Positions 1,060 to 38,269 of a stretch of 64,000 nucleotides of DNA are shown piece by piece. Positions within the stretch are counted from its first letter, which is position 1. Each line of letters opens with the position of its first letter. The notes beneath the pieces are model-generated. The model ran no database searches. It was not told the origin of the DNA and was given only the letters and a program-made list of their open reading frames with translations. Made by a program: the position numbers and the translations under genes. Source of the DNA: Octopus sinensis (Eukaryota); NCBI RefSeq assembly GCF_006345805.1, contig NC_043004.1, positions 16,554,001-16,618,000 on the forward strand, given 5' to 3'.

Positions 1060-2431
1060 GAATGTGTGTGGATGTGTGCGTGCGCGGAGGTCTGCGTGTG
1101 CGCGTGTGTGTGTATGCGTGCAATGATGAACGTGTGTGTGTGCGTGTGTTTGAGTATGTGTGTATGGTTGTGTCTGCAAACAACAGGCTAGTAGCTGGCT
1201 AGTTTGTAAGAATAAGGAGTGGTGTTTTTTTGTGTCCCAGCCACAGATAAGAACATTGAAGTATGTGCGTGTGTGTGTGTGCGTGTATGTATATGTATCA
1301 TGTGTGTGTTTGGTTTGTAGTGTGTGTGTGTATGGTGTGTGTTCCTGTGTGTGTATGCGTAGAGTTTTGGGTGTGTGCGAATAACTGGTGCTTAACTTAG
1401 TGTATGTGTGCGTTGTGTGCTTGTACGTGCGTATGTTTGTATATATATGTATGTATAATTGTGTGCGTGTATGTATAATTGTGTTCCGTGGTATGGGATT
1501 ATGTGTGGGTTCATTTGGTGTGTGTGTGTATGTATGTGCGTTGTTTGTGTGTGTGTGCGTGTATGTGTGCGTTTTGTATGTGTGGGTGTTGTAAGCGTAT
1601 ATGGATGTATATGCGTGTATCCGTGGGGTTGTAAGTTTTGGGTGTGTGCATTGGCGTGTGTGTGTGCGTGCGTATGTGTGCGTGTCTGTGCTTATATGTG
1701 TGTACGTATGTGTATGTGTGCGTGCGCGTGTAGGTATATATTGTGTGTATGTATATGTATGTGAATTTATGTGTGTTTGTACGTGTGTATGTGTGCGTGC
1801 GTGTATTGTATATGTATATGTAAATGTGTGTGCGTGTGTGTGTACGTGCGTGCGAGTGAATGTATGTATACATGTGCGTGTGTGTACAAATGTAGAGGTT
1901 TATATGTATGTTTATATGTTTATATGTGTGTATATATATGTATGCAAGCACACACTTTATATTTGAAAGATTGATGGAAAAGAATTGGTGTGGGTGTATG
2001 TGAATCCACAGGCACACACATACACACACTGACGCACGCCTGCAATACAGCCAGCCCCATATGTATGTATGTATGTATGTATGTATTATGTATGTATGTA
2101 TGTATGTATGTATGTATTTATGTGTGTATGTGTATGTGTGTGTGTATGTATGTATGTGTGTATGTATGTATGTGTGTGTGTGTATGTGTGTATGTATGTA
2201 TGTATGTATGTATGTGTGTGTGTATGTGTGTGTATGTGTGTATGTATGTATGTATGTATGTATGTATGTATGTATGTGTGTGTATGTATGTATGTATGTG
2301 TGTGTATGTATGTATCTATGTGTGTATGAGTTTTCAAGACAGTATGGTTGTATATATATAATATACATATATATATTTATGTTATATATATGTATATAAT
2401 ATATATCTATATATACATATCTGTATTTATA

Positions 2432-2471
<40 letters not shown>

Positions 2472-2543
2472 GTATATATATATGTATATATATGTATATG
2501 TATATAAATATATATATTGTATATATAGATATATATATAATAC

Positions 2544-2641
<98 letters not shown>

Positions 2642-2956
2642 TATATATATATATATATATTTATAAATATACATATATATGCATACACATACACACACAC
2701 ACATATATATATATATTTATAAATATACATATATATGCATACACATACACACACACAAGTGCTCTTCTTCACTTTCAGATTGTTCTGGTGTTAAGTTACA
2801 ATCATACATAATATCCAATATCCATCCATTTACATATTTATATATGTGCGTGTGTGTATGTGAGCGTGTCTGTGTGTATAAACGTGCATGCATATCTACG
2901 CATGGGTGTAATCGCTAACAAGTACACACAAGCGCGCACACACTCATACACTACAA

Positions 2957-2995
<39 letters not shown>

Positions 2996-3160
2996 TATAT
3001 ATTATATATATATATATATTATATATATAATATATATATGAATTCATGTATGTACTGGTTATCTCCATACCTTAAATTGCGACAATTATTACACATACGG
3101 AATATGGATGGATATATGAGTGTGTGTCTATGCGTGCATATATGTGTGTGCGTGTGTGTA
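1060..3160. repeat. Compound microsatellite block (GT, GTAT, TA)
   Basis: Directly visible simple repeats, including a ~55-bp tandem duplication at ~2655-2757. Confidence 0.95.
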
Positions 3161-3727
3161 CACGCGGGTAAATAGGGAGATATGTTTATTCATGATATTC
3201 ATGTTTTATTAGAGCTTGTTGTCAGAGAAGCTGAATATCAACACATGTATTTTATCGATTTTCATAATTCGTTCTAGATATATCTACATTTTTTTCGGTA
3301 GAGGATTCTTCACTCTCAGAGTGTGTTGGTATTACTTTACAATAACACATAATATCTAGTATCCATCCATATCAGTATATATAAAAATATATATATACGT
3401 GCATGCATATGTAAGCGTGCGTTTAACAGCTAAAGAGCTCATACAAACGCACAAAGACTTGAATATATTCAAATATGTGTACATAAAAACATATACACAC
3501 CTGCAGACACTCATATATGCGTATGTATATCTGTCTGTTTTTTGTAATTGTGTAACTATTTACGCATAGAGTTGATAACATTCTTACCTGCATACTTTAT
3601 TACGTGCATCAACATGCCTGCGTGTATTGTATTCACGGCAAATCTAACGTTTAATTCCTTTTTAAACAGTATGTCAACATTGAAATAGATATGAGTAATA
3701 TATTGAACATCTCTAAATTCACACACA

Positions 3728-3791
<64 letters not shown>

Positions 3792-3805
3792 CGTGTGTGT
3801 CTGTG

Positions 3806-4033
3806 TGTAAATTAATATGTGACAATTATTCGGTATGCAGGATAAAACTCCGAGTTTCGGATGCCGGGGTGGAAACCACGCCGCCATTTCTTCAGTTATC
3901 CGGCCATCGGAAAAAATACTTTTTTTTCCGATGGCCAGATAACTGAAGAGATGGCGGCGTAGATTTCCACTCCAGCATCTGAAACTCGGAGTTTTATCAT
4001 GGCTACGAATAATTGTTTCATATTACATTTACA
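3806..4033. repeat. ~230-bp near-perfect palindrome of a Penelope-like terminal repeat
   Basis: The arms gataaaactccgagtttcggatgc...cttcagttatccggccatcggaaaaaa and ttttttccgatggccagataactgaag...gcatctgaaactcggagttttatc are reverse complements centred at ~3918. Confidence 0.9.
3938..3998 (+). ncRNA. Minimal hammerhead ribozyme motif (mirror copy on - strand at 3841-3900)
   Basis: Stem I gataa/ttatc, CTGAAGA (3943-3949), stem II gatg/catc, GAAA (3981-3984), short palindromic stem III actc-g-gagt. Confidence 0.65.
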
Positions 4034-4108
4034 GATAAATTGCTCTATTTACGTAATATCGAGGTCTCTTTCATTCTTTTGTTGTCCTTACCATTTTTAT
4101 CAATGTAT

Positions 4109-25944: not shown

Positions 25945-26617
25945 CATTATTATTTTTTGATGAAAGCTCTGTTTATTTACTAGTATGGAAAGTGTCAGCT
26001 GCCAACATCCAGTAAACTAAGGTGACACTTGTTTATTGATTATGCTTCAAGAACCCTGTGAAGGACTCTGGCAGTTTCAAGCAACGATTATTTTTGCGGG
26101 TATTCTATTCTTATATTTGTATCAAACTTTTTGAGTTATATTGATAGTAGAGGGCTGTTACTTTCAAGCGCGACGATCACTCTGAGTATCACACACACTT
26201 TCTTCACTGCACACATCCTGTATATTTCCAGCTTCACATCGTCATAACTGTTCTTTCTCTTCGATCATGTTGTCATCTGGACATGCTATGTCGTTTATCA
26301 GGCATGTTCTTCTTCTTTGCTGTTCACCACAACAATGTCAGTTTCCGATTTCTAATCTGATAGCCACGCTGAATCATTGCATCCCAGAGGATTTAACAAA
26401 CCTCATTCTCAGTAACTCCCATTGGGATTTGGTCTTACCAAATCTTTGATCTTTCTAGGCCATAATTTCCACAGAGTTTTCAAAGAATCATTCTTGCCAC
26501 ATTCTCACATCGTCCTTTATATTCATATTGTGCCAATTCCGGGCATTCAGTAACAATGTGCCACACTGTTTAACCCCTGTAACCACGCATTCTGCATTTG
26601 TCGCTCTCTGTTTTTAC
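25945..26617 (-). pseudogene. R4/Dong-like non-LTR retrotransposon 3' end (zinc knuckle plus restriction-like endonuclease)
   Basis: The - strand gives DKCRM..TVWHIVTECPELAQYEYK, KLCGNYGLERSK, ILWDAMIQ, INDIACPDD and TARVLHRVLEA* (stop 26040-26042). A 3' UTR follows, ending in aataataat. Confidence 0.85.
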
Positions 26618-28612
26618 ATGAAGACAATAGAAAAAATCGAACACTTTCCAGTTGTAAAAGAGATGGCATTTGAACCAACTCTAAGTGACATTTATTTAGC
26701 TGTGAATAAGCTGAATAAAAATAAGTCTCCAGGGTCTGATGGAATCTCTGCAGAAGTTTTGAAATATGGGGGTGACAAAATGTTTGAACTCTTAATTATA
26801 TTAATTTGTCACTGTTGGACAAATAAGAAAGGGCCTCAAGACTGGACAGATGCAATTTTAGTCTCCTTGTATAAATCGGGGCCAAAGGATCTGTATAGTA
26901 ATTTTCGTGAGATTTCTCTTTTGTCTGTGGTTGGAGAGGTACCTGCCCGCATTTTGTTAGAACGTTTAAATACCTTCTTAGCTTCAAACATAGTGTATGA
27001 GTCTCAGTGTGGTTTTATTTCCTCCAGGGCCACAACTGATTGTATCTTTATTATCAGACAAATACAAGAAAAGGGCATTGAACAGAATCTTGCTCTATAA
27101 CACTGATTCTTGAGCAAAGCATTCGATACTGTTAATCGAAATGCTCTGTGGCTAATTCTAAGGAAAATAGGTTGCCCAGAAACAATTGTAAACATGATAC
27201 AGGGTTTGCATCAAGATATGAAAGCTAGAGTTCACTTTGGTGCTAGGTTCTCTGAATCTTTTGCCGTAGAAAATGGAGTAAAGCAAGGAGACCTTGAGGC
27301 ACCCACCGTTTTTGCAATATACTTTGCAGTTTTGTTGTCACGTGCTTTTCAAATCTCTGAGGAGGGTATTTACATAAAATATCGAACAGGGAATATTTTT
27401 AATCTGAAGAGACCAAAATTCAAAACAAAGGTTTTTACTTCAATCATTAGGGAACTTTTACACGCTGACGATTGCGATCTTGTATCTGCATTTTACTCGG
27501 CTTGTGATGATTTTGGCTTGACCATCAACTTGCAGAAACAGCTGTAATGCATCAACCCGAGTGTGGTGCTGTTTGTAACCCCACTAAAAGTTTTGTTACG
27601 GGTAAGTTAATTGAGGTTGTCGATTCGTTCATCTACCTTGGATGCTCTATACAAAATGATGGAAATCTTGTCACTGAAGCAAAAGCATTTCGTGGTTTGG
27701 AATCGCGTTTGGTGCCAGCGACATATAAATAAGAATACAAAGCTGGTCTTTACAAACCATTTGTCATACCATCCCTGAAAATTCTTATGAAACATGGACT
27801 TGTTATGAAAGTCATTTAAATTATTAGAACAATTCCTCCAAAAATGCTTTCATTGCATTTTAAACATTAAATGGAGTTCTTTTACTCCCGATGTAGATAT
27901 CCTTGCATCTGCAGGCATCACCTAAATTAAAGCTATGATTCTGAGAAACCAATTGAGATGGTATGACCATATTGTTCGAATGGTGGATGAACGCATGCCG
28001 AAACAGCTGTTTCATGGTGAGCTTGCAGAGGGGCATTGATATCGTCGTAAACCTAACAAAAGGTTTAAGGAAGGCATAAGGCATAAGGAAGGCATAAGTC
28101 ATTTGGAATGGATCCAGATGACATAGAATATCTTGCTTCGGATCGTGTTGGGTGGCGAACAAAATTGTGGAGTGGAGTGAAAGTATTTGAAGAGGCCATG
28201 ATAACGCATGTCTTAAAAGAACTAAGGAATAATGTTACGATCGAGAAAGTGAATGACAATGACCTTTTTGTGTGCACAGTTTTTTACTGAGCTCAGATTT
28301 CATTTGCGGACCCATCGAAAACGAACCACCACCAACTATTCTGCCTATATGTATGTGCACACCTTTAAATGTAGCTAGCGTATGCTAGAAGGCTTGCAAA
28401 TCTAACGGAGGCCTCAAAAGACATTTTAAGATCCACTAAGATTGGAACTTATCTGCAGCTCTTGGTGGTGTGGTCCAAATCGGATGTGCAATCTATGTAG
28501 ATGTCTTTTCGGAACATTGTCTGGTCTAAAAAGCCACATCAGATGCCATGATATTGCTAAGGTGTAGGTACAGGAGGCGGCCAAACTCTGCATAAGGAGT
28601 AGACAACCACCA
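26618..28612 (+). pseudogene. RTE-clade LINE, 5'-truncated: RT domain plus three C-terminal C2H2 zinc fingers
   Basis: KSPGSDGISAEVLK, REISLLSVVG, ESQCGF, SKAFDTVNR, GVKQGD, LLHADD, FIYLG. Finger remnants HLRTH, KACKSNGGLKRHFKIH and CNLCRCLFGTLSGLKSHIRCH. Stop at 28565-28567. Multiple stops and frameshifts. Confidence 0.93.
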
Positions 28613-28905: not shown

Positions 28906-29629
28906 ACAATTTTATAAACTCCATTCTGTTTTATGATAGAAATTCGTGTTCTCGAAACTATATTTAAATGAAATTGACAGCAAATAAGTTACTTAAAAGA
29001 CGACAGAAAGTATATTTATAATTAGAAGTAAAAAAACAGCCTATACATCTTCTTTATGAAAGACAATAATTTAAATTGAGTTTGTTCACGCAGCGCACAA
29101 TTGTTGTTAAAAAATCAGATTATAAATGATATGTCAACATAAATATGAAATTTGTAAGCTAAGTTCTTTGATAGTATAATAGAGATATATTTTATAATGA
29201 AACGATTTTTCTATATTCAGAAATATTAAAATGAAATAAATATATCCAATCTGAGAATATTCTATATTTTTGTGATATTCTCAGTAATGCCAACTTGTTG
29301 TTTAACATAGAAACGAAAGCATATTATTTGATGTCTAGAAAATAACAAATTTTGAAGTTTCGTGAAGCATAACTCAAATCTGAAAGAATTGTTGAAAGAA
29401 TTTGGCAATTTTTAAATATAAATAATGATTTGTAGTACATAAAATGAGGCTCACCCTGATTTTGTGACATGTTGCCGTAATTGAGTAACCAAAATCCCAT
29501 TATTAATATTATTAATATTATTATTATTATTAGTAGTAGTAGTAGTAGTAGTAGTAGTAATAGTAGTAGTAGTAGTAGTAGTAGTAGTACTACTACTACT
29601 ACTTCTACTACTACTACTACTACTACTAT

Positions 29630-30004
29630 TGCCTTTGCACAGCTTCTAAAGCTGGAGATGTACTACGGTGTCAGCTGTTCATTACCAGTGAATTAAGGTA
29701 ACAGTCCTTATTTTTCTAGCACCTTTCGGAGTTTTGAGCGGCTCTTGTCACTTATGCTGAATCTCCAGGCATTGCAATAACTATGATCTTAGATTCGTTT
29801 TTTCCTTTATCTACCACAACACTATCTTCTCTACGAGCATCGATTAGAAAGTCACATTGGATTGTAAAATCCCACAGTATCTTATGTTCATTGTTCTCGG
29901 CGACTCCTCCGGTTCATGTTCGTACCATTTCGTGCTCTGTTCAGGCCGTATTTTTCACATAGCTTCGAGTGAATTACCTTAGCCACATTATCGTGCTAAC
30001 TTGT
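29630..30004 (-). pseudogene. R4/Dong-like LINE, 3' piece (endonuclease domain plus 3' UTR)
   Basis: The - strand gives HDNVAKVIHSKLCEKYGLNRA, KWYEHEP, ENNEHKILWDFTIQCDFLIDARRE, VVVDK and LRKVLEK*. The 3' end abuts a trinucleotide tract. Confidence 0.85.
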
Positions 30005-30360
30005 ATAATTTTAATTATTAACAGCAATACATTCATTGAAGGTTTGATATTATATCGGTGTCTCATCAGCTACCACTGTGTTATTTTTATGTATAGGTCA
30101 GTGATCACACGTTAAGTGAAGCTGCGAGCTGATGATAATTTATCTGAAAAGATGATTATAATAATAACTTCACTTATATATCATGTTGTCGCAAGAACAA
30201 TATATCGAACAAAAAATGCACAACATATTTTGAACTGGACGATTAATGGAATTTGGTAGAGGATAAACCTTATTAATCTATCATATATGAATACATATAT
30301 GTACACAAATGCACATACACACACATGCATATATATGTTGTGTATATTACTATGTGTGTA

Positions 30361-30767
30361 CGTGACTGTGTGGTAAGTAGCTTGCTTACGAACCACATGG
30401 TTCCGGGTTCAGTCCTACTGCATGGCACCTTGGGCAAGTGTCTTCTACTATAGCCTCGGGCCGACCAAAGTCTTGTGAGTGGATTTGGTAGACGCAAACT
30501 GAAAGAAGCCCGTCGTATATATGTATATATATATGTATGTGTGTGTATATGTTTGTGTGTCTGTGTTTGTCCCCCCAGCATCGCTTGACAACCGATGCTG
30601 GTGTGTTTACGTCCCCGTAACTTAGCGGTTCGGCAAAACAGACCAATAGAATAAGTACTAGGCTTACAAATAATAAGTCCTGGGGTCGATTTGCTCGACT
30701 AAAGGCGGTGCTCCAGCATGGCCACAGTCAAATGACTGAAACAAATAAAAGAGTAAAGAGTAAAGAG

Positions 30768-30768
<1 letters not shown>
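30361..30768 (+). mobile_element. SINE family A (mirror copy at 37574-37933, - strand)
   Basis: Full body with the B-box-like ggttcagtcc and a (aaagagt)n tail. Confidence 0.9.
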
Positions 30769-30835
<67 letters not shown>

Positions 30836-31065
30836 ATATGCGTCTATATATAAATACATCTCCTGATCAGAGATGCACATATCATCAGCCATTAAGGGAC
30901 GTGCTCAATTGTATATGATGAAGGAACTGACAAGGGAATCTGTGAGATTGAGCAGAACATTTCTTGTGGCCAATCTTTTATATCGAGACAAAACATCTAC
31001 ATGATTAAACTTCCAAACATGATAAAAGTTCAAAACTTGTAAGATTCTTCTTCTTCTTCTTCTTC

Positions 31066-31134
<69 letters not shown>

Positions 31135-31135
<1 letters not shown>

Positions 31136-31310
31136 AGCGTAGCGGTATTTCCCCAGTTGCCAAGTTCTGAGTTCAAATTCAGCAGACGTCGACTTTGCCT
31201 TTCATCCTTTCGGGCTCGATAAAGTATGTACAAGTTGAACACCGGAATCGATGTAATCGACTCATCTCCACTTCCTCCAAGCTGGCCTTGTGGCAAAACT
31301 TTGAAATGAA
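31135..31310 (+). mobile_element. SINE family B, 5'-truncated (mirror copy at ~37040-37214)
   Basis: gttctgagttcaaattc...gtcgactttgcctttcatcctttcggg. Confidence 0.82.
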
Positions 31311-32249
31311 AATAATAATAATTATTACTATGCTAGTCTATGCTAATTTAGCTAACGGGTATTTCATTTTGTAATATGGTGACAGCTCTCCTCAAATAAC
31401 AAGAACCATCCTTCGAATTCTTCCATAGTATATATTGGTACTTTCCTGCAGATCGACAGTGAAATCGAATAAACGATCATTAAAAATAACAACAGCAAAC
31501 AAAAAGAGGACGCGCACATGGAGTGTAGTATTTTGACGCTCGGTTAAAAGATAGAGATTTTGACATTTCAGCATAGCTCTTCTTCAAACAGAAAAGTCCA
31601 ATATTTATATATATATATATATATATATATGGGTATTTGCTAAGGTGTGTATATGTATGTTTGTACGTATGAGTGTACGTCCGTATTTAGGGAAAAACGT
31701 TTCTCAAAAGAGCAATCATTGTATTTATTTGTTTCTAAGTACTGCATGAGCAACTTTGCAGTGCGATGAATAAGTTTGATGTACTTAAATGATATGATCA
31801 ATAAAAATATACGAGACTGATTATCCAGCTTCTATTTTTCAATCTTTATTTTAAAATGGTTTGGATGGTGGCAAAACTAGTGTGTAAGAGAATCAACCAA
31901 AACGACAATATTTGAAACTCATTTCACACTAATCAATTTTCGACCAAATTTTCTCTTTTTTCTTTTTCTTTCTCTTTCATCTATAGCTGATGCATTTATT
32001 ACATGGAGATGTGAATTTTATGAACATGTAAAATCTAAAAACACGCCCCTGTTAAATTCATGAATTAATTTTAATATGTGTAGTTGATGAATTTTCAGGC
32101 GTATATTACGTCTATCTTATTAGCTATAAAGTATTATATTGCCACTTTGAACTGAGTATAATTTGATTTTGAATAAATTTTAGATGACAATCTCATAAAA
32201 CTTACATGAGATATTTATGAATAATATATACGTATTATATACAATATAT

Positions 32250-32310
<61 letters not shown>

Positions 32311-32387
32311 TATTCATATATATATATATATATATATACGTAGGTATATATATAATATAATATAATATAATATTATATATATATATA

Positions 32388-33447
32388 TGATTGGTCATCC
32401 CATAAATAATGCGGTTTTTTATACTTCCTTTATTTTCCTTTTTCAATGTAAAATATACTCTCCTTCATTTTCTACAATGCTCTTCCATCTGTCTGGTAGA
32501 CTTGCAAGGCCCCGTTTTGTCCCAGTACTCCTCCAGTACTGTTCTGGCTCCGTCTACAGAATCCATATTTTTTCCATCGAAATGATTTTGAAGATTGCGG
32601 AATAAATGATAATCAGTTGGGGTAATGTCCGGCAAATGTGGTAGGTGGGACATCGTTTTTTATTCAAACTGCTCCAGCCTTTGGAATGTCATCCTCGCTG
32701 TATGTGTCTGAGTATTATTCTGACGGAAGAACACCTTTCATCTTCAAACCAAAATTGGTCATTTGCCTTCTACTCGCAGTAGATCTCCTTTGTTATCGTT
32801 TGGTTTGAGTTGAAAAGTTCAAAGTGGATAACACCTTTCATATCCCACCAAACCGATACCAACACCTTACGTGGGTGAAGACCTTCTTTAGCCTGGCGGG
32901 AGAGGCAGTTCTCCGTTCCCTACACACTGTTTTGGTGCTTCGCATTTTAATAGAGAAGCTCATTTGTCGTCACCAGTCACTATTCGTCAAAAAAAGTTTC
33001 ATTCGTGAGATGTGACAGCAAAGAAGAGCACACATTCAGAACGTTTTTGAGGAACCCATTGACCCAATATCCTGACTATTCCAATGGCACGCAGATGTCA
33101 ATGAATGGTTGAATGACCACATTCAAGATTCACTACTTGTTTCTCGATGGTTACAATGGCATTGTGTGTCACCAGGTTTTGCAGGACGTCCACGCCGAGC
33201 TCTACAGATCTTTTAGAATGAGACTTGTCTTCTAGATTGTAGTTTTCGGCTCGGAAATTCTGGAACCACCATTGACACTGGCTAACGCTTATTGTCCGAT
33301 CCCCATATACTGCATTAATATTCCCCGCACCTTCTTTTGAGGTGTTTCCTCTATTGAGCTCATAAATCAAATTATCCCGAATTTGCTCCGTTGACACATC
33401 GAATATAGCTTTGAAAATATAACTGTGAAAATCGGACTGCACTCATT
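32388..33447 (-). mobile_element. Mariner (DD34D-type) decayed transposon, duplicated copy
   Basis: EQIRDNLIYELNRG, INAVYGDRTISVSQCQWWFQNFR, IVTGDDK, PDITPTDYHLFRNLQNHFDG. The terminal repeat ggtcatcccataaataatgcgg lies next to (TA)n. Confidence 0.92.
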
Positions 33448-33605
33448 GTTCCTGAGCGCTGCATATCAATGCCTCAGTGCATCCTTTCAATACACTTTTT
33501 CTTTGCCATCTCCAAGTGTTGATCTTGTGTTTTCCTTCGATTTCTCTGAGGTATTGCCCGTAATTTTTCAGTTTTTTACTCTTTCTTCATTTTGTTCCTT
33601 AAATA
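33448..33605 (-). pseudogene. R4/Dong-like LINE, upstream piece colinear with 29630-30004
   Basis: The - strand gives YGQYLREIEGKHKINTWRWQRKSVLKGCTEALICSAQEQ, the segment that precedes the zinc knuckle in this family. It is cut at the duplication boundary. Confidence 0.82.
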
Positions 33606-34222
33606 TTTAAGGGTTTATCACATTTTCGGTAGATATCATATTGTTAATTCTAACAGCGACCAGCAAATATTCACTCTTGTTTGATTGACTTTACCGTTCG
33701 TTCTATCAGGGTCGATAAATTAAGTACCAGTTGAATACTGGGGTCGATGTAATCAACTTATCCGCCCCCAAAATATTTCAGTAAAACAAGAATTGTTTAT
33801 TTTTTTCATGTCTTATAGCTAGTACCAAGGGTCGTAGATATATTATCTCCGACTGGGTCATTACACAAACCAAAGGAAATAACAACCGTAATACTCCACG
33901 CTAATGACTTAATATCGTACATTAAACGTTTCATCGAACTTGTAATTATTAAAGTGATGAGTCCGCAATACGTGTTTATGTAAGATTTTGATGCTTCGTT
34001 ATGCCGATAGTCGAAAGAGGATTTTCTTTCACATCGAGATGTAGGAAAATTCAACTTCCTTCCAATAGTTTGCGTTGATTGTACCACGTCATATTAGCAG
34101 CTCCTACGATATTGCTGTTAATAATTAAAATTATACATGTCATTAATATCGAAGTATGCCCCCCCTCTCTCTCTCTCTCACTCCTTCTCTCTCTATATAT
34201 ATATACTTATTTATTCAAAATG

Positions 34223-34430
34223 TGACCGCGTGTGTACCGTTGGCGATTTTTTTTCCTCTGTCTTCCCTTCTCTGGATCTTTCCTTCTCCTATGTTCCTGA
34301 CGAAGAGATCCGCTCGAAACGTTAAACCCTCCTTCTTTCCTTCTTTCTGAGCGTCCAATAATACTATATTTGTTCCACGTCCTCGCGTTGTGTTTTTTTT
34401 GTGCTTTCTTGTTTGGATTAACTTTATATA
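34223..34430 (+). mobile_element. Penelope-like terminal repeat fragment with hammerhead core
   Basis: CTGACGA (34297-34303)-agag atccg ctc-GAAAC (34316-34320)-GTTA, followed by a T-rich tail. Confidence 0.55.
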
Positions 34431-34857
34431 CTTATTTATTTATGCGCCCTTTTCATTCCTAGCCAGGCTCATGGGCCTAGTTTCCCGGTTTTTATGGCGT
34501 ATGTGTTCCCCCCAGCTGGACGGGAGGCCAGTCCATCGCAGCGTTACTCAAGAAACATATGTCCATATACAAGCTTTTTATCTCTCTATACTTTTTACTT
34601 ATATTTCTTATATATTTTATATATTTTCTTTTACATATTTATAGAGATATTGTTTTATAGTTTTATTGCTCATATATTTTTTTACACATAATTTTTCACA
34701 TAATTTTTACACATAATTTTTCATAATTTATGCGGGTATGTATATATTTTTTGGCGAATGTGAGGGTGAGCACGTGTGTGTTTCAAGTGAGGGTGGATGA
34801 TTATATACATATTAGCGCATGTACGTGGGCGAGCGTGCGCGCATGTCTATGTATGTC

Positions 34858-35937
34858 TATATAAGCAGGTAGTAAATTTACATGGTGCTTACTCTTAGTG
34901 CAAATTTTAATGAGTGCAGTCCGATTTTCACAGTTATATTTTCAAAGCTATATTCGATGTGTCAACGGAGCAAATTCGGGATAATTTGATTTATGAGCTC
35001 AATAGAGGAAACACCTCAAAAGAAGGTGCGGGGAATATTAATGCAGTATATGGGGATCGGACAATAAGCGTTAGCCGAAAACTACAATCTAGAAGACAAG
35101 TCTCATTCTAAAAGATCTGTAGAGCTCGGCGTGGACGTCCTGCAAAACCTGGTGACACACAATGCCATTGTAACCATCGAGAAACAAGTAGTGAATCTTG
35201 AATGTGGTCATTCAACCATTCATTGACATCTGCGTGCCATTGGAATAGTCAGGATATTGGGTCAATGGGTTCCTCAAAAACGTTCTGAATGTGTGCTCTT
35301 CTTTGCTGTCACATCTCACGAATGAAACTTTTTTTGACGAATAGTGACTGGTGACGACAAATGAGCTTCTCTATTAAAATGCGAAGCACCAAAACAGTGT
35401 GTAGGGAACGGAGAACTGCCTCTCCCGCCAGGCTAAAGAAGGTCTTCACCCACGTAAGGTGTTGGTATCGGTTTGGTGGGATATGAAAGGTGTTATCCAC
35501 TTTGAACTTTTCAACTCAAACCAAACGATAACAAAGGAGATCTACTGCGAGTAGAAGGCAAATGACCAATTTTGGTTTGAAGATGAAAGGTGTTCTTCCG
35601 TCAGAATAATACTCAGACACATACAGCGAGGATGACATTCCAAAGGCTGGAGCAGTTTGAATAAAAAACGATGTCCCACCTACCACATTTGCCGGACATT
35701 ACCCCAACTGATTATCATTTATTCCGCAATCTTCAAAATCATTTCGATGGAAAAAATATGGATTCTGTAGACGGAGCCAGAACAGTACTGGAGGAGTACT
35801 GGGACAAAACGGGGCCTTGCAAGTCTACCAGACAGATGGAAGAGCATTGTAGAAAATGAAGGAGAGTATATTTTACATTGAAAAAGGAAAATAAAGGAAG
35901 TATAAAAAACCGCATTATTTATGGGATGACCAATCAT
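34858..35937 (+). mobile_element. Mariner decayed transposon, probable donor copy
   Basis: Same sequence as 32388-33447 except for a 32-bp deletion at ~35077. The 5' leader appears to continue ~50 bp into the spacer (judged from recalled consensus). Confidence 0.9.
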
Positions 35938-36071
35938 ATATATATATATATATAATATTATATTATATTATATTATATATATTTTATATATATATATACC
36001 TACGTATATATATATATATATATATATATGAATATCTATATATATATATATTATATATATATATATGAATA

Positions 36072-36107
<36 letters not shown>

Positions 36108-36717
36108 ATATAATACGTATATATTATTCATAAATATCTCATGTAAGTTTTATGAGATTGTCATCTAAAATTTATTCAAAATCAAATTATACTCAGTTCA
36201 AAGTGGCAATATAATACTTTATAGCTAATAAGATAGACGTAATATACGCCTGAAAATTCATCAACTACACATATTAAAATTAATTCATGAATTTAACAGG
36301 GGCGTGTTTTTAGATTTTACATGTTCATAAAATTCACATCTCCATGTAATAAATGCATCAGCTATAGATGAAAGAGAAAGAAAAAGAAAAAAGAGAAAAT
36401 TTGGTCGAAAATTGATTAGTGTGAAATGAGTTTCAAATATTGTCGTTTTGGTTGATTCTCTTACACACTAGTTTTGCCACCATCCAAACCATTTTAAAAT
36501 AAAGATTGAAAAATAGAAGCTGGATAATCAGTCTCGTATATTTTTATTGATCATATCATTTAAGTACATCAAACTTATTCATCGCACTGCAAAGTTGCTC
36601 ATGCAGTACTTAGAAACAAATAAATACAATGATTGCTCTTTTGAGAAACGTTTTTCCCTAAATACGGACGTACACTCATACGTACAAACATACATATACA
36701 CACCTTAGCAAATACCC

Positions 36718-36748
<31 letters not shown>

Positions 36749-37213
36749 TTGGACTTTTCTGTTTGAAGAAGAGCTATGCTGAAATGTCAAAATCTCTATC
36801 TTTTAACCGAGCGTCAAAATACTACACTCCATGTGCGCGTCCTCTTTTTGTTTGCTGTTGTTATTTTTAATGATCGTTTATTCGATTTCACTGTCGATCT
36901 GCAGGAAAGTACCAATATATACTATGGAAGAATTCGAAGGATGGTTCTTGTTATTTGAGGAGAGCTGTCACCATATTACAAAATGAAATACCCGTTAGCT
37001 AAATTAGCATAGACTAGCATAGTAATAATTATTATTATTTTCATTTCAAAGTTTTGCCACAAGGCAGCTTGGAGGAAGTGGAGATGAGTCGATTACATCG
37101 ATTCCGGTGTTCAACTTGTACATACTTTATCGAGCCCGAAAGGATGAAAGGCAAAGTCGACGTCTGCTGAATTTGAACTCAGAACTTGGCAACTGGGGAA
37201 ATACCGCTACGCT

Positions 37214-37299
<86 letters not shown>

Positions 37300-37540
37300 A
37301 AGAAGAAGAAGAAGAAGAAGAAGAAGAAGAATCTTACAAGTTTTGAACTTTTATCATGTTTGGAAGTTTAATCATGTAGATGTTTTGTCTCGATATAAAA
37401 GATTGGCTACAAGAAATGTTCTGCTCAATCTCACAGATTCCCTTGTCAGTTCCTTCACCATATACAATTGAGCACGTCCCTTAATGGCTGATGATATGTG
37501 CATCTCTGATCAGGAGATGTATTTATATATAGACGCATAT

Positions 37541-37575
<35 letters not shown>

Positions 37576-38269
37576 CTCTTTACTCTTTTATTTGTTTCAG
37601 TCATTTGACTGTGGCCATGCTGGAGCACCGCCTTTAGTCGAGCAAATCGACCCCAGGACTTGTTATTTGTAAGCCTAGTACTTATTCTATTGGTCTGTTT
37701 TGCCGAACCGCTAAGTTACGGGGACGTAAACACAGACACACAAACATATACACACACATACATATATATATACATATATACGACGGGCTTCTTTCAGTTT
37801 GCGTCTACCAAATCCACTCACAAGGCTTTGGTCGGCCCGAGGCTATAGTAGAAGACACTTGCCCAAGGTGCCATGCAGTAGGACTGAACCCGGAACCATG
37901 TGGTTCGTAAGCAAGCTACTTACCACACAGTCACGTACACACATAGTAATATACACAACATATATATGCATGTGTGTGTATGTGCATTTGTGTACATATA
38001 TGTATTCATATATTATAGATTAATAAGGTTTATCCTCTACCAAATTCCATTAATCGTCCAGTTCAAAATATGTTGTGCATATTTTGTTCGATATATTGTT
38101 CTTGCGACAACATGATATATAAGTGAAGTTATTATTATAATCATCTTTTCAGATAAATTATCATCAGCTCGCAGCTTCACTTAACGTGTGATCACTGACC
38201 TATACATAAAAATAACACAGTGGTAGCTGATGAGACACCGATATAATATCAAACCTTCAATGAATGTAT
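34909..38269. repeat. Right arm of the inverted duplication
   Basis: Runs aatgagtgcagtccg... to ...aaccttcaatgaatgtat, mirroring 33447 back to 30027. Confidence 0.97.

What the first reader, a model, noticed from the sequence alone, without database searches (positions are those of the whole stretch)
29630..38269. 3.4-kb inverted duplication inserted into a LINE: readable template-switching repair scar
Seen: 30027-33447 mirrors 34909-38269 across a 1461-bp spacer. The left arm is flanked by two colinear - strand pieces of one R4/Dong ORF: ...EALICSAQEQ ends at 33448 and YK..HDNVAK resumes at ~30004. The intervening zinc-knuckle segment, present in the copy at 25945-26617, is missing. No TIR, TSD or tail bounds the arm, and it contains unrelated SINE, mariner and unique DNA. 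Inference: the left arm is the derived copy, made when a break in the LINE was repaired by copying nearby DNA in inverted orientation (FoSTeS/MMBIR-type), replacing roughly 150 bp.
Basis: partly seen in the sequence, partly recalled or inferred. Interest (0 to 1): 0.8.

Follow-up and report, generated by a model that had tools for sequence, protein, structure and literature searches.

The report
DNA break repaired by inverted copying
A 3.4-kb stretch of repeat-rich DNA is present twice in mirror image, and the extra copy plus a 28-base inverted snippet from nearby sit inside a dead retrotransposon that lost about 140 bases; this is likely the scar of a recent DNA break repaired by fold-back copying, a known kind of rearrangement, with no gene found to be affected.

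Summary
Arms 30027-33447 and 34909-38269 mirror each other across a single-copy 1,461-bp spacer. The left arm is the new copy: a mariner runs on past the right inner end in 23 of 23 genomic copies, while the left arm splits one LINE (18 of 24 relatives hold both pieces in line, about 132-143 bp lost). Junctions show 2-bp and 3-bp microhomology. Short-read contigs of one run break exactly at the new junction; a relative 2.3% away runs through with the old arrangement. Most likely a resected break end folded back, copied 3.4 kb, re-primed inside its own loop and was joined to the other end; fork switching and breakage-replication/fusion fit too. Young (roughly under 0.3 My), possibly polymorphic. 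Known class of rearrangement, no gene found hit. The scan noted one small templated scar before, in a bacterial genome; none in this genome.

The parts
29632..29996 (-). 3' piece of the broken LINE (restriction-like endonuclease region), followed leftwards by a TAA/TAG-type microsatellite at about 29500-29630
   Evidence: translation; 29745-29996 is 81% identical on average to 18 family copies
29997..30001 (.). 5 bases at junction 3: either diverged LINE or untemplated filler
   Evidence: no unique local template found
30002..30029 (-). 28-bp templated insert, exact inverted copy of 34110-34137; its 3 bases 30027-30029 are shared with the arm (microhomology)
   Evidence: (2 matches in 2.72 Gb, control 0)
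30027..33447 (-). left arm, the derived inverted copy (3,421 bp): SINE pieces, microsatellites, unique DNA, 5'-cut mariner
30562..30601 (.). 40 bp of a SINE kept in the left arm and deleted from the right arm (at about 37735), 7-bp microhomology
   Evidence: 17 of 17 spanning paralogue alignments carry it
33248..33279 (.). 32 bp of the mariner kept in the left arm and deleted from the right arm (at about 35077), 4-bp microhomology
   Evidence: 19 of 20 covering copies carry it; contig of run X1 ends at 33251
33446..33447 (-). junction 1: 2-bp microhomology (AA) shared by the LINE and the arm start
   Evidence: 13 of 15 LINE copies continue with AA here
33448..33685 (-). 5' piece of the broken LINE
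33448..34908 (.). single-copy spacer, 1,461 bp (the loop in a fold-back model)
   Evidence: 33790-34160 occurs once
34110..34137 (+). donor of the 28-bp insert, unique DNA inside the spacer
34857..35936 (+). decayed mariner that crosses the right inner junction; its first 52 bp lie in the spacer (end coordinate approximate)
   Evidence: 23 of 23 copies cross 34908/34909; Pfam HTH_48 Mos1 E 2.5e-14 on the left-arm copy
34909..38269 (+). right arm, the original copy (3,361 bp)
   Evidence: ancestral junction bridged in contigs of X18 and X3

Best explanation
The left arm and a 28-bp inverted insert replace about 140 bp of one dead LINE, and they were likely made in one repair event in which the right-hand end of a double-strand break folded back on itself and copied its own strand. 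Inferred steps: the break fell in the LINE and the right end was resected; its 3' end (ending AA at 33446-33447) paired 1.46 kb back at 34909-34910 and was extended for 3.36 kb to 38269; the new end (TAT) slipped off and re-primed at 34110-34112, inside the single-stranded loop, for 25 more bases; it was then joined to the left end near 30001, and the other strand was filled in, which opened the hairpin without making a dicentric chromosome. Shown: the order, orientation and origin of all pieces, the two microhomologies, which arm is old. Inferred: that it was one event, the break, the fold-back, the enzymes (a long-tract polymerase, then end joining of the polymerase-theta type for the short insert). 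The product is most likely neutral.
For: Polarity: 41 of 46 repeat hits cross the right inner junction, 0 of 88 cross the left inner one, where 37 end and 40 start; 23 of 23 mariners cross 34908/34909. One LINE: 18 of 24 copies picked with the 5' piece hold the 3' piece in line, median gap 142.5 bp, both pieces 81-82% identical to them. Insert: 28-mer twice in 2.72 Gb; 1 of 1,325 random non-simple window positions has so long a local match. Both templates lie on the same side of the break and on the same strand, and the short one lies in the loop (about 7% by chance within 5 kb either side; modest). Spacer of 1,461 bp with 2-bp inverted microhomology matches human fold-back junctions (spacers 766-70,466 bp, 7 of 13 with 2 bp; PMC3907307 passages); yeast fold-back synthesis followed by capture of the other end by end joining, and Pol theta inserts up to about 30 nt, are described in PMC11724301 (Discussion). 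Reads: contig of X1 ends exactly at 33447; X3 and X18 bridge the ancestral junction unbroken.
Against: The same sequence results from fork template switching or from breakage-replication/fusion. The yeast fold-back inserts are 2-150 bp, far shorter than 3.4 kb, and human and yeast long fold-backs end in dicentrics. 2-3 bp of microhomology is weak alone (134 of 1,000 simulated junctions had 2 bp or more). Junction 3 has 5 unexplained bases. The arms differ in a step pattern (6 substitutions in the outer 780 callable bases, 0 in the inner 2,157; P about 0.001-0.002) that one intramolecular copying event does not explain without a later crossover, conversion or a haplotype switch in the assembly.
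Confidence: 0.5

Rival explanations
1. Fork stalling and template switching or MMBIR: a nascent or broken 3' end switched template three times (LINE to 28 bp at 34137-34110, to 38269-34909, back to 33448), using the sister or the opposite parental strand rather than its own strand.
For: Two templated pieces, short then long when read from the left, with 3-bp and 2-bp microhomology. [quoted passage not shown] A switch onto the homologue could also explain the step in arm identity.
Against: Nothing ties the event to a fork. It needs jumps of about 0.8, 4.1 and 1.5 kb that happen to use one strand and land the short template between the two inner breakpoints, which fold-back gives for free.
Confidence: 0.22
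2. Breakage-replication/fusion: a staggered break end was replicated into two sister ends (33448 and 34909) that fused; one sister broke again at 38269 and was joined to the left end with a captured single-stranded scrap.
For: 33448 and 34909 are adjacent parallel breakpoints 1,461 bp apart joined as a fold-back junction, and the short insert maps next to the end; both are the hallmarks named in PMC12807874 (passages).
Against: Needs a second break only 3.4 kb away and survival of the left end through a round of replication; no other rearrangement was seen in 464 kb around the site by self-comparison, though that test sees only duplications.
Confidence: 0.2
3. Assembly artefact: two haplotypes or a chimeric long read were stitched into a false inverted duplication.
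For: Outer 0.77% divergence between arms is of a size alleles could have (typical heterozygosity recalled, not measured). The junction-spanning contig was not displayed. A haplotype switch may well explain some arm differences.
Against: Short-read contigs of X1 end exactly at 33447 and at 33251, the two places where the arms part, with arm depth 97-104 against 49-74 in the spacer. A false join would not put a unique 28-mer from the spacer at the outer junction nor delete one LINE cleanly between two in-line pieces. No N in the window.
Confidence: 0.03
4. A transposon with long terminal inverted repeats (foldback-like element), as is common in this genome.
For: 4 of 4 other local inverted pairs tested are high-copy families.
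Against: Here the outer arm end and the unique interior occur only twice in the genome, the inner end cuts a mariner mid-sequence, and there is no target-site duplication.
Confidence: 0.01

Closest known systems
[quoted passage not shown]
   Same: Small loss, nearby duplicated segment, inverted junctions, one extra small template; the paper counts 472 two-jump cases and also 3-4-jump clusters.
   Different: Germline, in an invertebrate, a few kb in size, read at base level because two old transposons mark the ancestral order.
Human fold-back inverted duplications with a disomic spacer (PMC3907307; passages read)
   Same: Single-copy spacer of 1.5 kb, 2-bp inverted microhomology at the spacer/inversion junction, local templated insert.
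   Different: Those end in a terminal deletion through a dicentric chromosome; here the copy stops after 3.4 kb and returns to the other side of the break.
Local fold-back templated inversions at yeast double-strand breaks (PMC11724301; abstract and Discussion read)
   Same: [quoted passage not shown]
   Different: Those are 2-150 bp; this is 3.4 kb with a kb-sized loop and a second priming.
Breakage-replication/fusion (PMC12807874; passages read)
   Same: Adjacent parallel breakpoints, fold-back junction, short insert from beside the end.
   Different: Described in chromothripsis and disease genomes with many breaks; here one isolated site.
1,752-bp intragenic inverted duplication in CHM (PMC8756506; abstract only)
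   Same: Kilobase-size interspersed inverted duplication with microhomology at the junctions, inherited.
   Different: That one holds an exon and causes disease; no exon was found here.

Membership tests
Local n-jump: loss plus inverted duplication (PCAWG class) | local copy-number loss | tested here: met
   about 132-143 bp of LINE missing against 18 in-line relatives
Local n-jump: loss plus inverted duplication (PCAWG class) | nearby duplication joined by inverted junctions | tested here: met
Local n-jump: loss plus inverted duplication (PCAWG class) | all junctions on one derivative chromosome | tested here: inconclusive
   so in the assembly; only short-read contigs were available and only the inner junctions were laid
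Fold-back inverted duplication (human inv-dup type) | single-copy spacer of kb size | tested here: met
   1,461 bp; the part searched occurs once
Fold-back inverted duplication (human inv-dup type) | 2-8 bp inverted microhomology at the spacer/inversion junction | tested here: met
   AA, 13 of 15 LINE copies
Fold-back inverted duplication (human inv-dup type) | terminal deletion, dicentric intermediate | tested here: not met
   the chromosome goes on in the same LINE beyond the outer junction; it works like a fold-back but is not a member of that class
FoSTeS/MMBIR product | several templated segments with microhomology at each join | tested here: inconclusive
   two templates; microhomology at 2 of 3 junctions, third ambiguous; feature list recalled and
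FoSTeS/MMBIR product | origin at a stalled or collapsed fork; enzyme dependence | not testable with these tools
   leaves no mark in one allele
[quoted passage not shown]
   33448 and 34909; donor 34110-34137
Breakage-replication/fusion | sister ends made by replication, second break | not testable with these tools
   no signature available
Long-TIR transposon | many copies, shared termini, target-site duplication | tested here: not met
R4/Dong LINE (host element) | CCHC knuckle followed by restriction-like endonuclease motif | tested here: inconclusive
   motifs visible in natural copy L032 (motif names recalled); Pfam zf-RVT E 1.8e-4, below cut-off; no useful PDB match
R4/Dong LINE (host element) | placement in the R4 clade by reverse-transcriptase tree | not tested

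The most novel reading that the evidence does not exclude
A natural germline record of a rescued fold-back: a kb-size hairpin escaped the dicentric fate by re-priming inside its own loop, and the original arm lost 32 and 40 bp by microhomology slippage while it was re-synthesised in the same event. Both alleles may still segregate, so the order of steps could be read from wild haplotypes in a mollusc-type genome.
Probability: 0.2. Interest if true: 0.5.

Novelty: new member of a known kind. Interest (0 to 1): 0.3.

Why it matters
Modest. It is a clean, base-resolved example of a rearrangement class known from cancer genomes, human disease and yeast, in a lineage where my searches listed no such description. 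Old transposons at three of four junctions give the ancestral order without a reference genome, a trick that could be run genome-wide to count such events and test whether short inserts come from the fold-back loop. It also shows a trap: most local inverted pairs in this genome are high-copy repeats, not scars. No gene or function was found.

Tried and rejected
(1) First polarity count for the 32-bp segment gave 2 of 11 carrying it; that set had been picked with the deleted right arm as query and was enriched for deleted copies. A set picked with a neighbouring part gave 19 of 20 (2 copies did not cover the place, 1 dropped for span). (2) I first guessed that such scars occur about once per 250 kb because 7 loci with local inverted pairs turned up in 1.26 Mb; 4 of the 6 others were tested and all are high-copy families, 2 untested, so that guess was dropped. 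(3) Depth of contigs does not settle carrier state: arm over spacer is 1.3-1.4 or 2.0-2.1 in X1 depending on the spacer contig, and 1.2 or 2.0 in X18, which shows no branch. (4) X19 had no displayed contig at the junction and depth about 6; no conclusion. (5) No unique template found for 29997-30001. (6) The right outer junction has no repeat crossing it (0 hits), so it could not be polarised directly. (7) PDB search of a LINE piece: nothing under E 0.8. (8) Pfam scan of 17 stop-free stretches from the window: 1 of 17 with a weak hit below cut-off, taken as chance; short exons would be missed. (9) A search for the gnomAD-type class name 'dDUP-iDEL' (recalled) showed 0 occurrences in the 10 papers listed.
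Full report
OBSERVATION. Self-comparison of the window gives one long inverted match, 30027-33447 against 38269-34909 (3,474 columns, 12 mismatches, 166 gap columns), with a 1,461-bp spacer. Six mismatches and most gaps lie in microsatellites. Outside them the arms differ by 6 substitutions, one 1-bp indel, and two segments of 40 and 32 bp that only the left arm has. The window lies at G000:C8:16,554,001-16,618,000 of a 2.72-Gb genome. I take it for an octopus from its repeats; that is recalled and comes from no call. Unique parts of the arm match exactly twice in the genome, the second match stopping at the arm end; the spacer part searched matches once.

WHICH ARM IS NEW. The arm's inner end lies in a decayed mariner (Pfam HTH_48, E 2.5e-14). 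All 23 other copies fetched (23 of the 38 non-self matches listed) align 36-53 bp beyond 34909 into the spacer. Over all fetched DNA, 41 of 46 repeat hits cross the right inner junction; none of 88 crosses the left inner one, where 37 end and 40 start. So the right arm is in its old place at that end. No repeat crosses the right outer end, so that end is not polarised directly.

THE BROKEN LINE. The pieces 33448-33685 and 29745-29996 belong to one family: of 24 copies picked with the 5' piece alone, 18 hold the 3' piece in line, with a median gap of 142.5 bp (range 42-151, commonest 145); both pieces are 81-82% identical to those copies. 13 of 15 copies continue with AA where the arm begins with AA, a 2-bp microhomology. 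The loss is therefore about 143 bp, or about 132 if the last 4 insert bases and the 5 after them are LINE. The copy at 25945-26617 is another subfamily. The R4/Dong label is plausible from motifs but was not tested by a tree; PMC13282606 (passages) lists Dong-R4 among abundant, recently active LINEs of Octopus vulgaris.

30002-30029 is the exact reverse complement of 34110-34137, unique DNA in the spacer. The 28-mer occurs twice in 2.72 Gb, at these two places; the reversed control never. One of 1,325 random non-simple positions in the window has so long an exact match within 10 kb. Its three bases 30027-30029 are shared with the arm end (TAT). Five bases, 29997-30001, stay unassigned. Read on the minus strand the allele is: spacer down to 33448, switch (AA) to 34909 and copy to 38269, switch (TAT) to 34110 and copy to 34137, join to the LINE near 30001. 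There is no target-site duplication.

READS. One search listed 21 runs, 20 holding part of the stretch; four were laid on 32400-34908 as contigs. In X1, contigs identical to the window end exactly at 33447 and at 33251, the two places where the arms part, and a spacer-end contig overhangs 34908 by 30 bases, as a graph with a branch would give. In X3 (10 differences in 426 spacer bases, 2.3%) and X18 (none in 419) one contig runs from the arm through the ancestral junction into 34908 without a break, and X18 also passes 33251. So the relative X3 likely lacks the duplication, and X18, close to the window in sequence, probably does too, which would make it a polymorphism. X19 was uninformative.

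ARM DIFFERENCES AND AGE. Paralogues polarise five of six substitutions: left derived at 30471 (19 of 20), 30918 (14 of 18), 30968 (18 of 18); right derived at 30674 (21 of 22) and weakly 30282 (2 of 2). Both larger segments are deletions from the right, original arm (17 of 17; 19 of 20), flanked by 7 and 4 bp of microhomology. All six substitutions lie in the outer 780 of 2,937 callable bases (0.77%), none in the inner 2,157 (P 0.0007-0.0016). A later crossover in the right arm, a haplotype switch in the assembly, arm-to-arm conversion or a switch to the homologue during the event would each give this step; I cannot separate them. Two deletions of 10 bp or more against six substitutions exceeds the ratio in 22 mariner copies (1 per 85; P about 0.002-0.009), but those copies were best-scoring and so poor in deletions; the LINE alignment shows more, so this is only a lead. 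With 0.09 divergence per 25 My (passage in PMC13282606) the age is about 0.28 My from the whole arm, under 0.19 My from the inner part; rough.

BACKGROUND. In 1,263,900 bases (464 kb around the window, four 200-kb blocks elsewhere) 7 loci, this one included, have local inverted pairs of 150 bp or more with 3% mismatch or less. Four of the other six were searched and are high-copy families; two were not. This locus is the only one shown to be a two-copy event, so such scars are not everywhere, but the sample is small and includes the region chosen for it.

MECHANISM. All copied DNA comes from one side of the lost segment and one strand, and the short template lies in the spacer. A resected right-hand end that folds back, extends, re-primes in its loop and is joined to the left end explains this with one break (0.5). 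Fork switching or MMBIR (0.22) and breakage-replication/fusion (0.2) give the same sequence. Templated, microhomology-linked repair of some kind, with the left arm derived, is about 0.92 likely; artefact about 0.03. Enzymes are inferred only.

WHAT IS KNOWN. [quoted passage not shown] Its inner junction resembles human fold-backs (PMC3907307, passages) but lacks their terminal deletion. Yeast shows the hybrid fold-back plus end-joining route for short inserts (PMC11724301, abstract and Discussion) and dicentric formation for long ones (PMC10622511, abstract). Breakage-replication/fusion is from PMC12807874 (passages). PMC8756506 (abstract) is a similar-sized human case. No supplements were read. 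Two searches that included octopus or cephalopod listed no paper using those words among the 15 and 10 shown; that is not proof of absence.

VERDICT. Real, correctly read in outline, more complete with the 28-bp insert; a new member of a known kind, probably neutral (no host exon seen; short exons would be missed). Interest 0.3.

Noticed in passing
G000:C8:16800976-16810657 (L124-L125): Inverted arms of 4.15 kb, 3 mismatches, 1,380-bp spacer; the outer end is the terminus of a high-copy family in TA microsatellite. Looks like a young transposon with very long terminal inverted repeats; interior not checked.
   Followed up: partly
G000:C18:30106467-30110750 (L216-L217), C12:20150136-20154270 (L201), C8:16631840-16634663 (L107): Three more local inverted pairs belonging to young high-copy families, best copies 97-99% identical, 1,500-4,100 first-look candidates each; families not classified.
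   Followed up: partly
G000:C8:16441020-16444982 and C12:20180094-20181622: Two shorter local inverted pairs (303 bp; 161 bp within a tandem array) not tested for copy number.
   Followed up: no
five sampled blocks, 1.26 Mb: 15 head-to-tail duplications of 0.3-2.6 kb at 94-99% identity; real tandem duplications or assembly effects, not examined.
   Followed up: no
window 25945-26617 (-) and about 26650-28230 (+): A 3' fragment of another endonuclease-type LINE subfamily lies head to head with a decayed reverse-transcriptase LINE on the other strand (Pfam RVT_1 below cut-off).
   Followed up: partly
mariner family, around the position of window 33248-33279: Many genomic copies carry different 18-45-bp deletions over this stretch, but that set was chosen with the deleted query; in an unbiased set 1 of 20 did.
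   Followed up: yes
window 34857: The mariner itself begins abruptly here, lacking the sequence that other copies have further 5': an older truncation, unrelated to the duplication.
   Followed up: no
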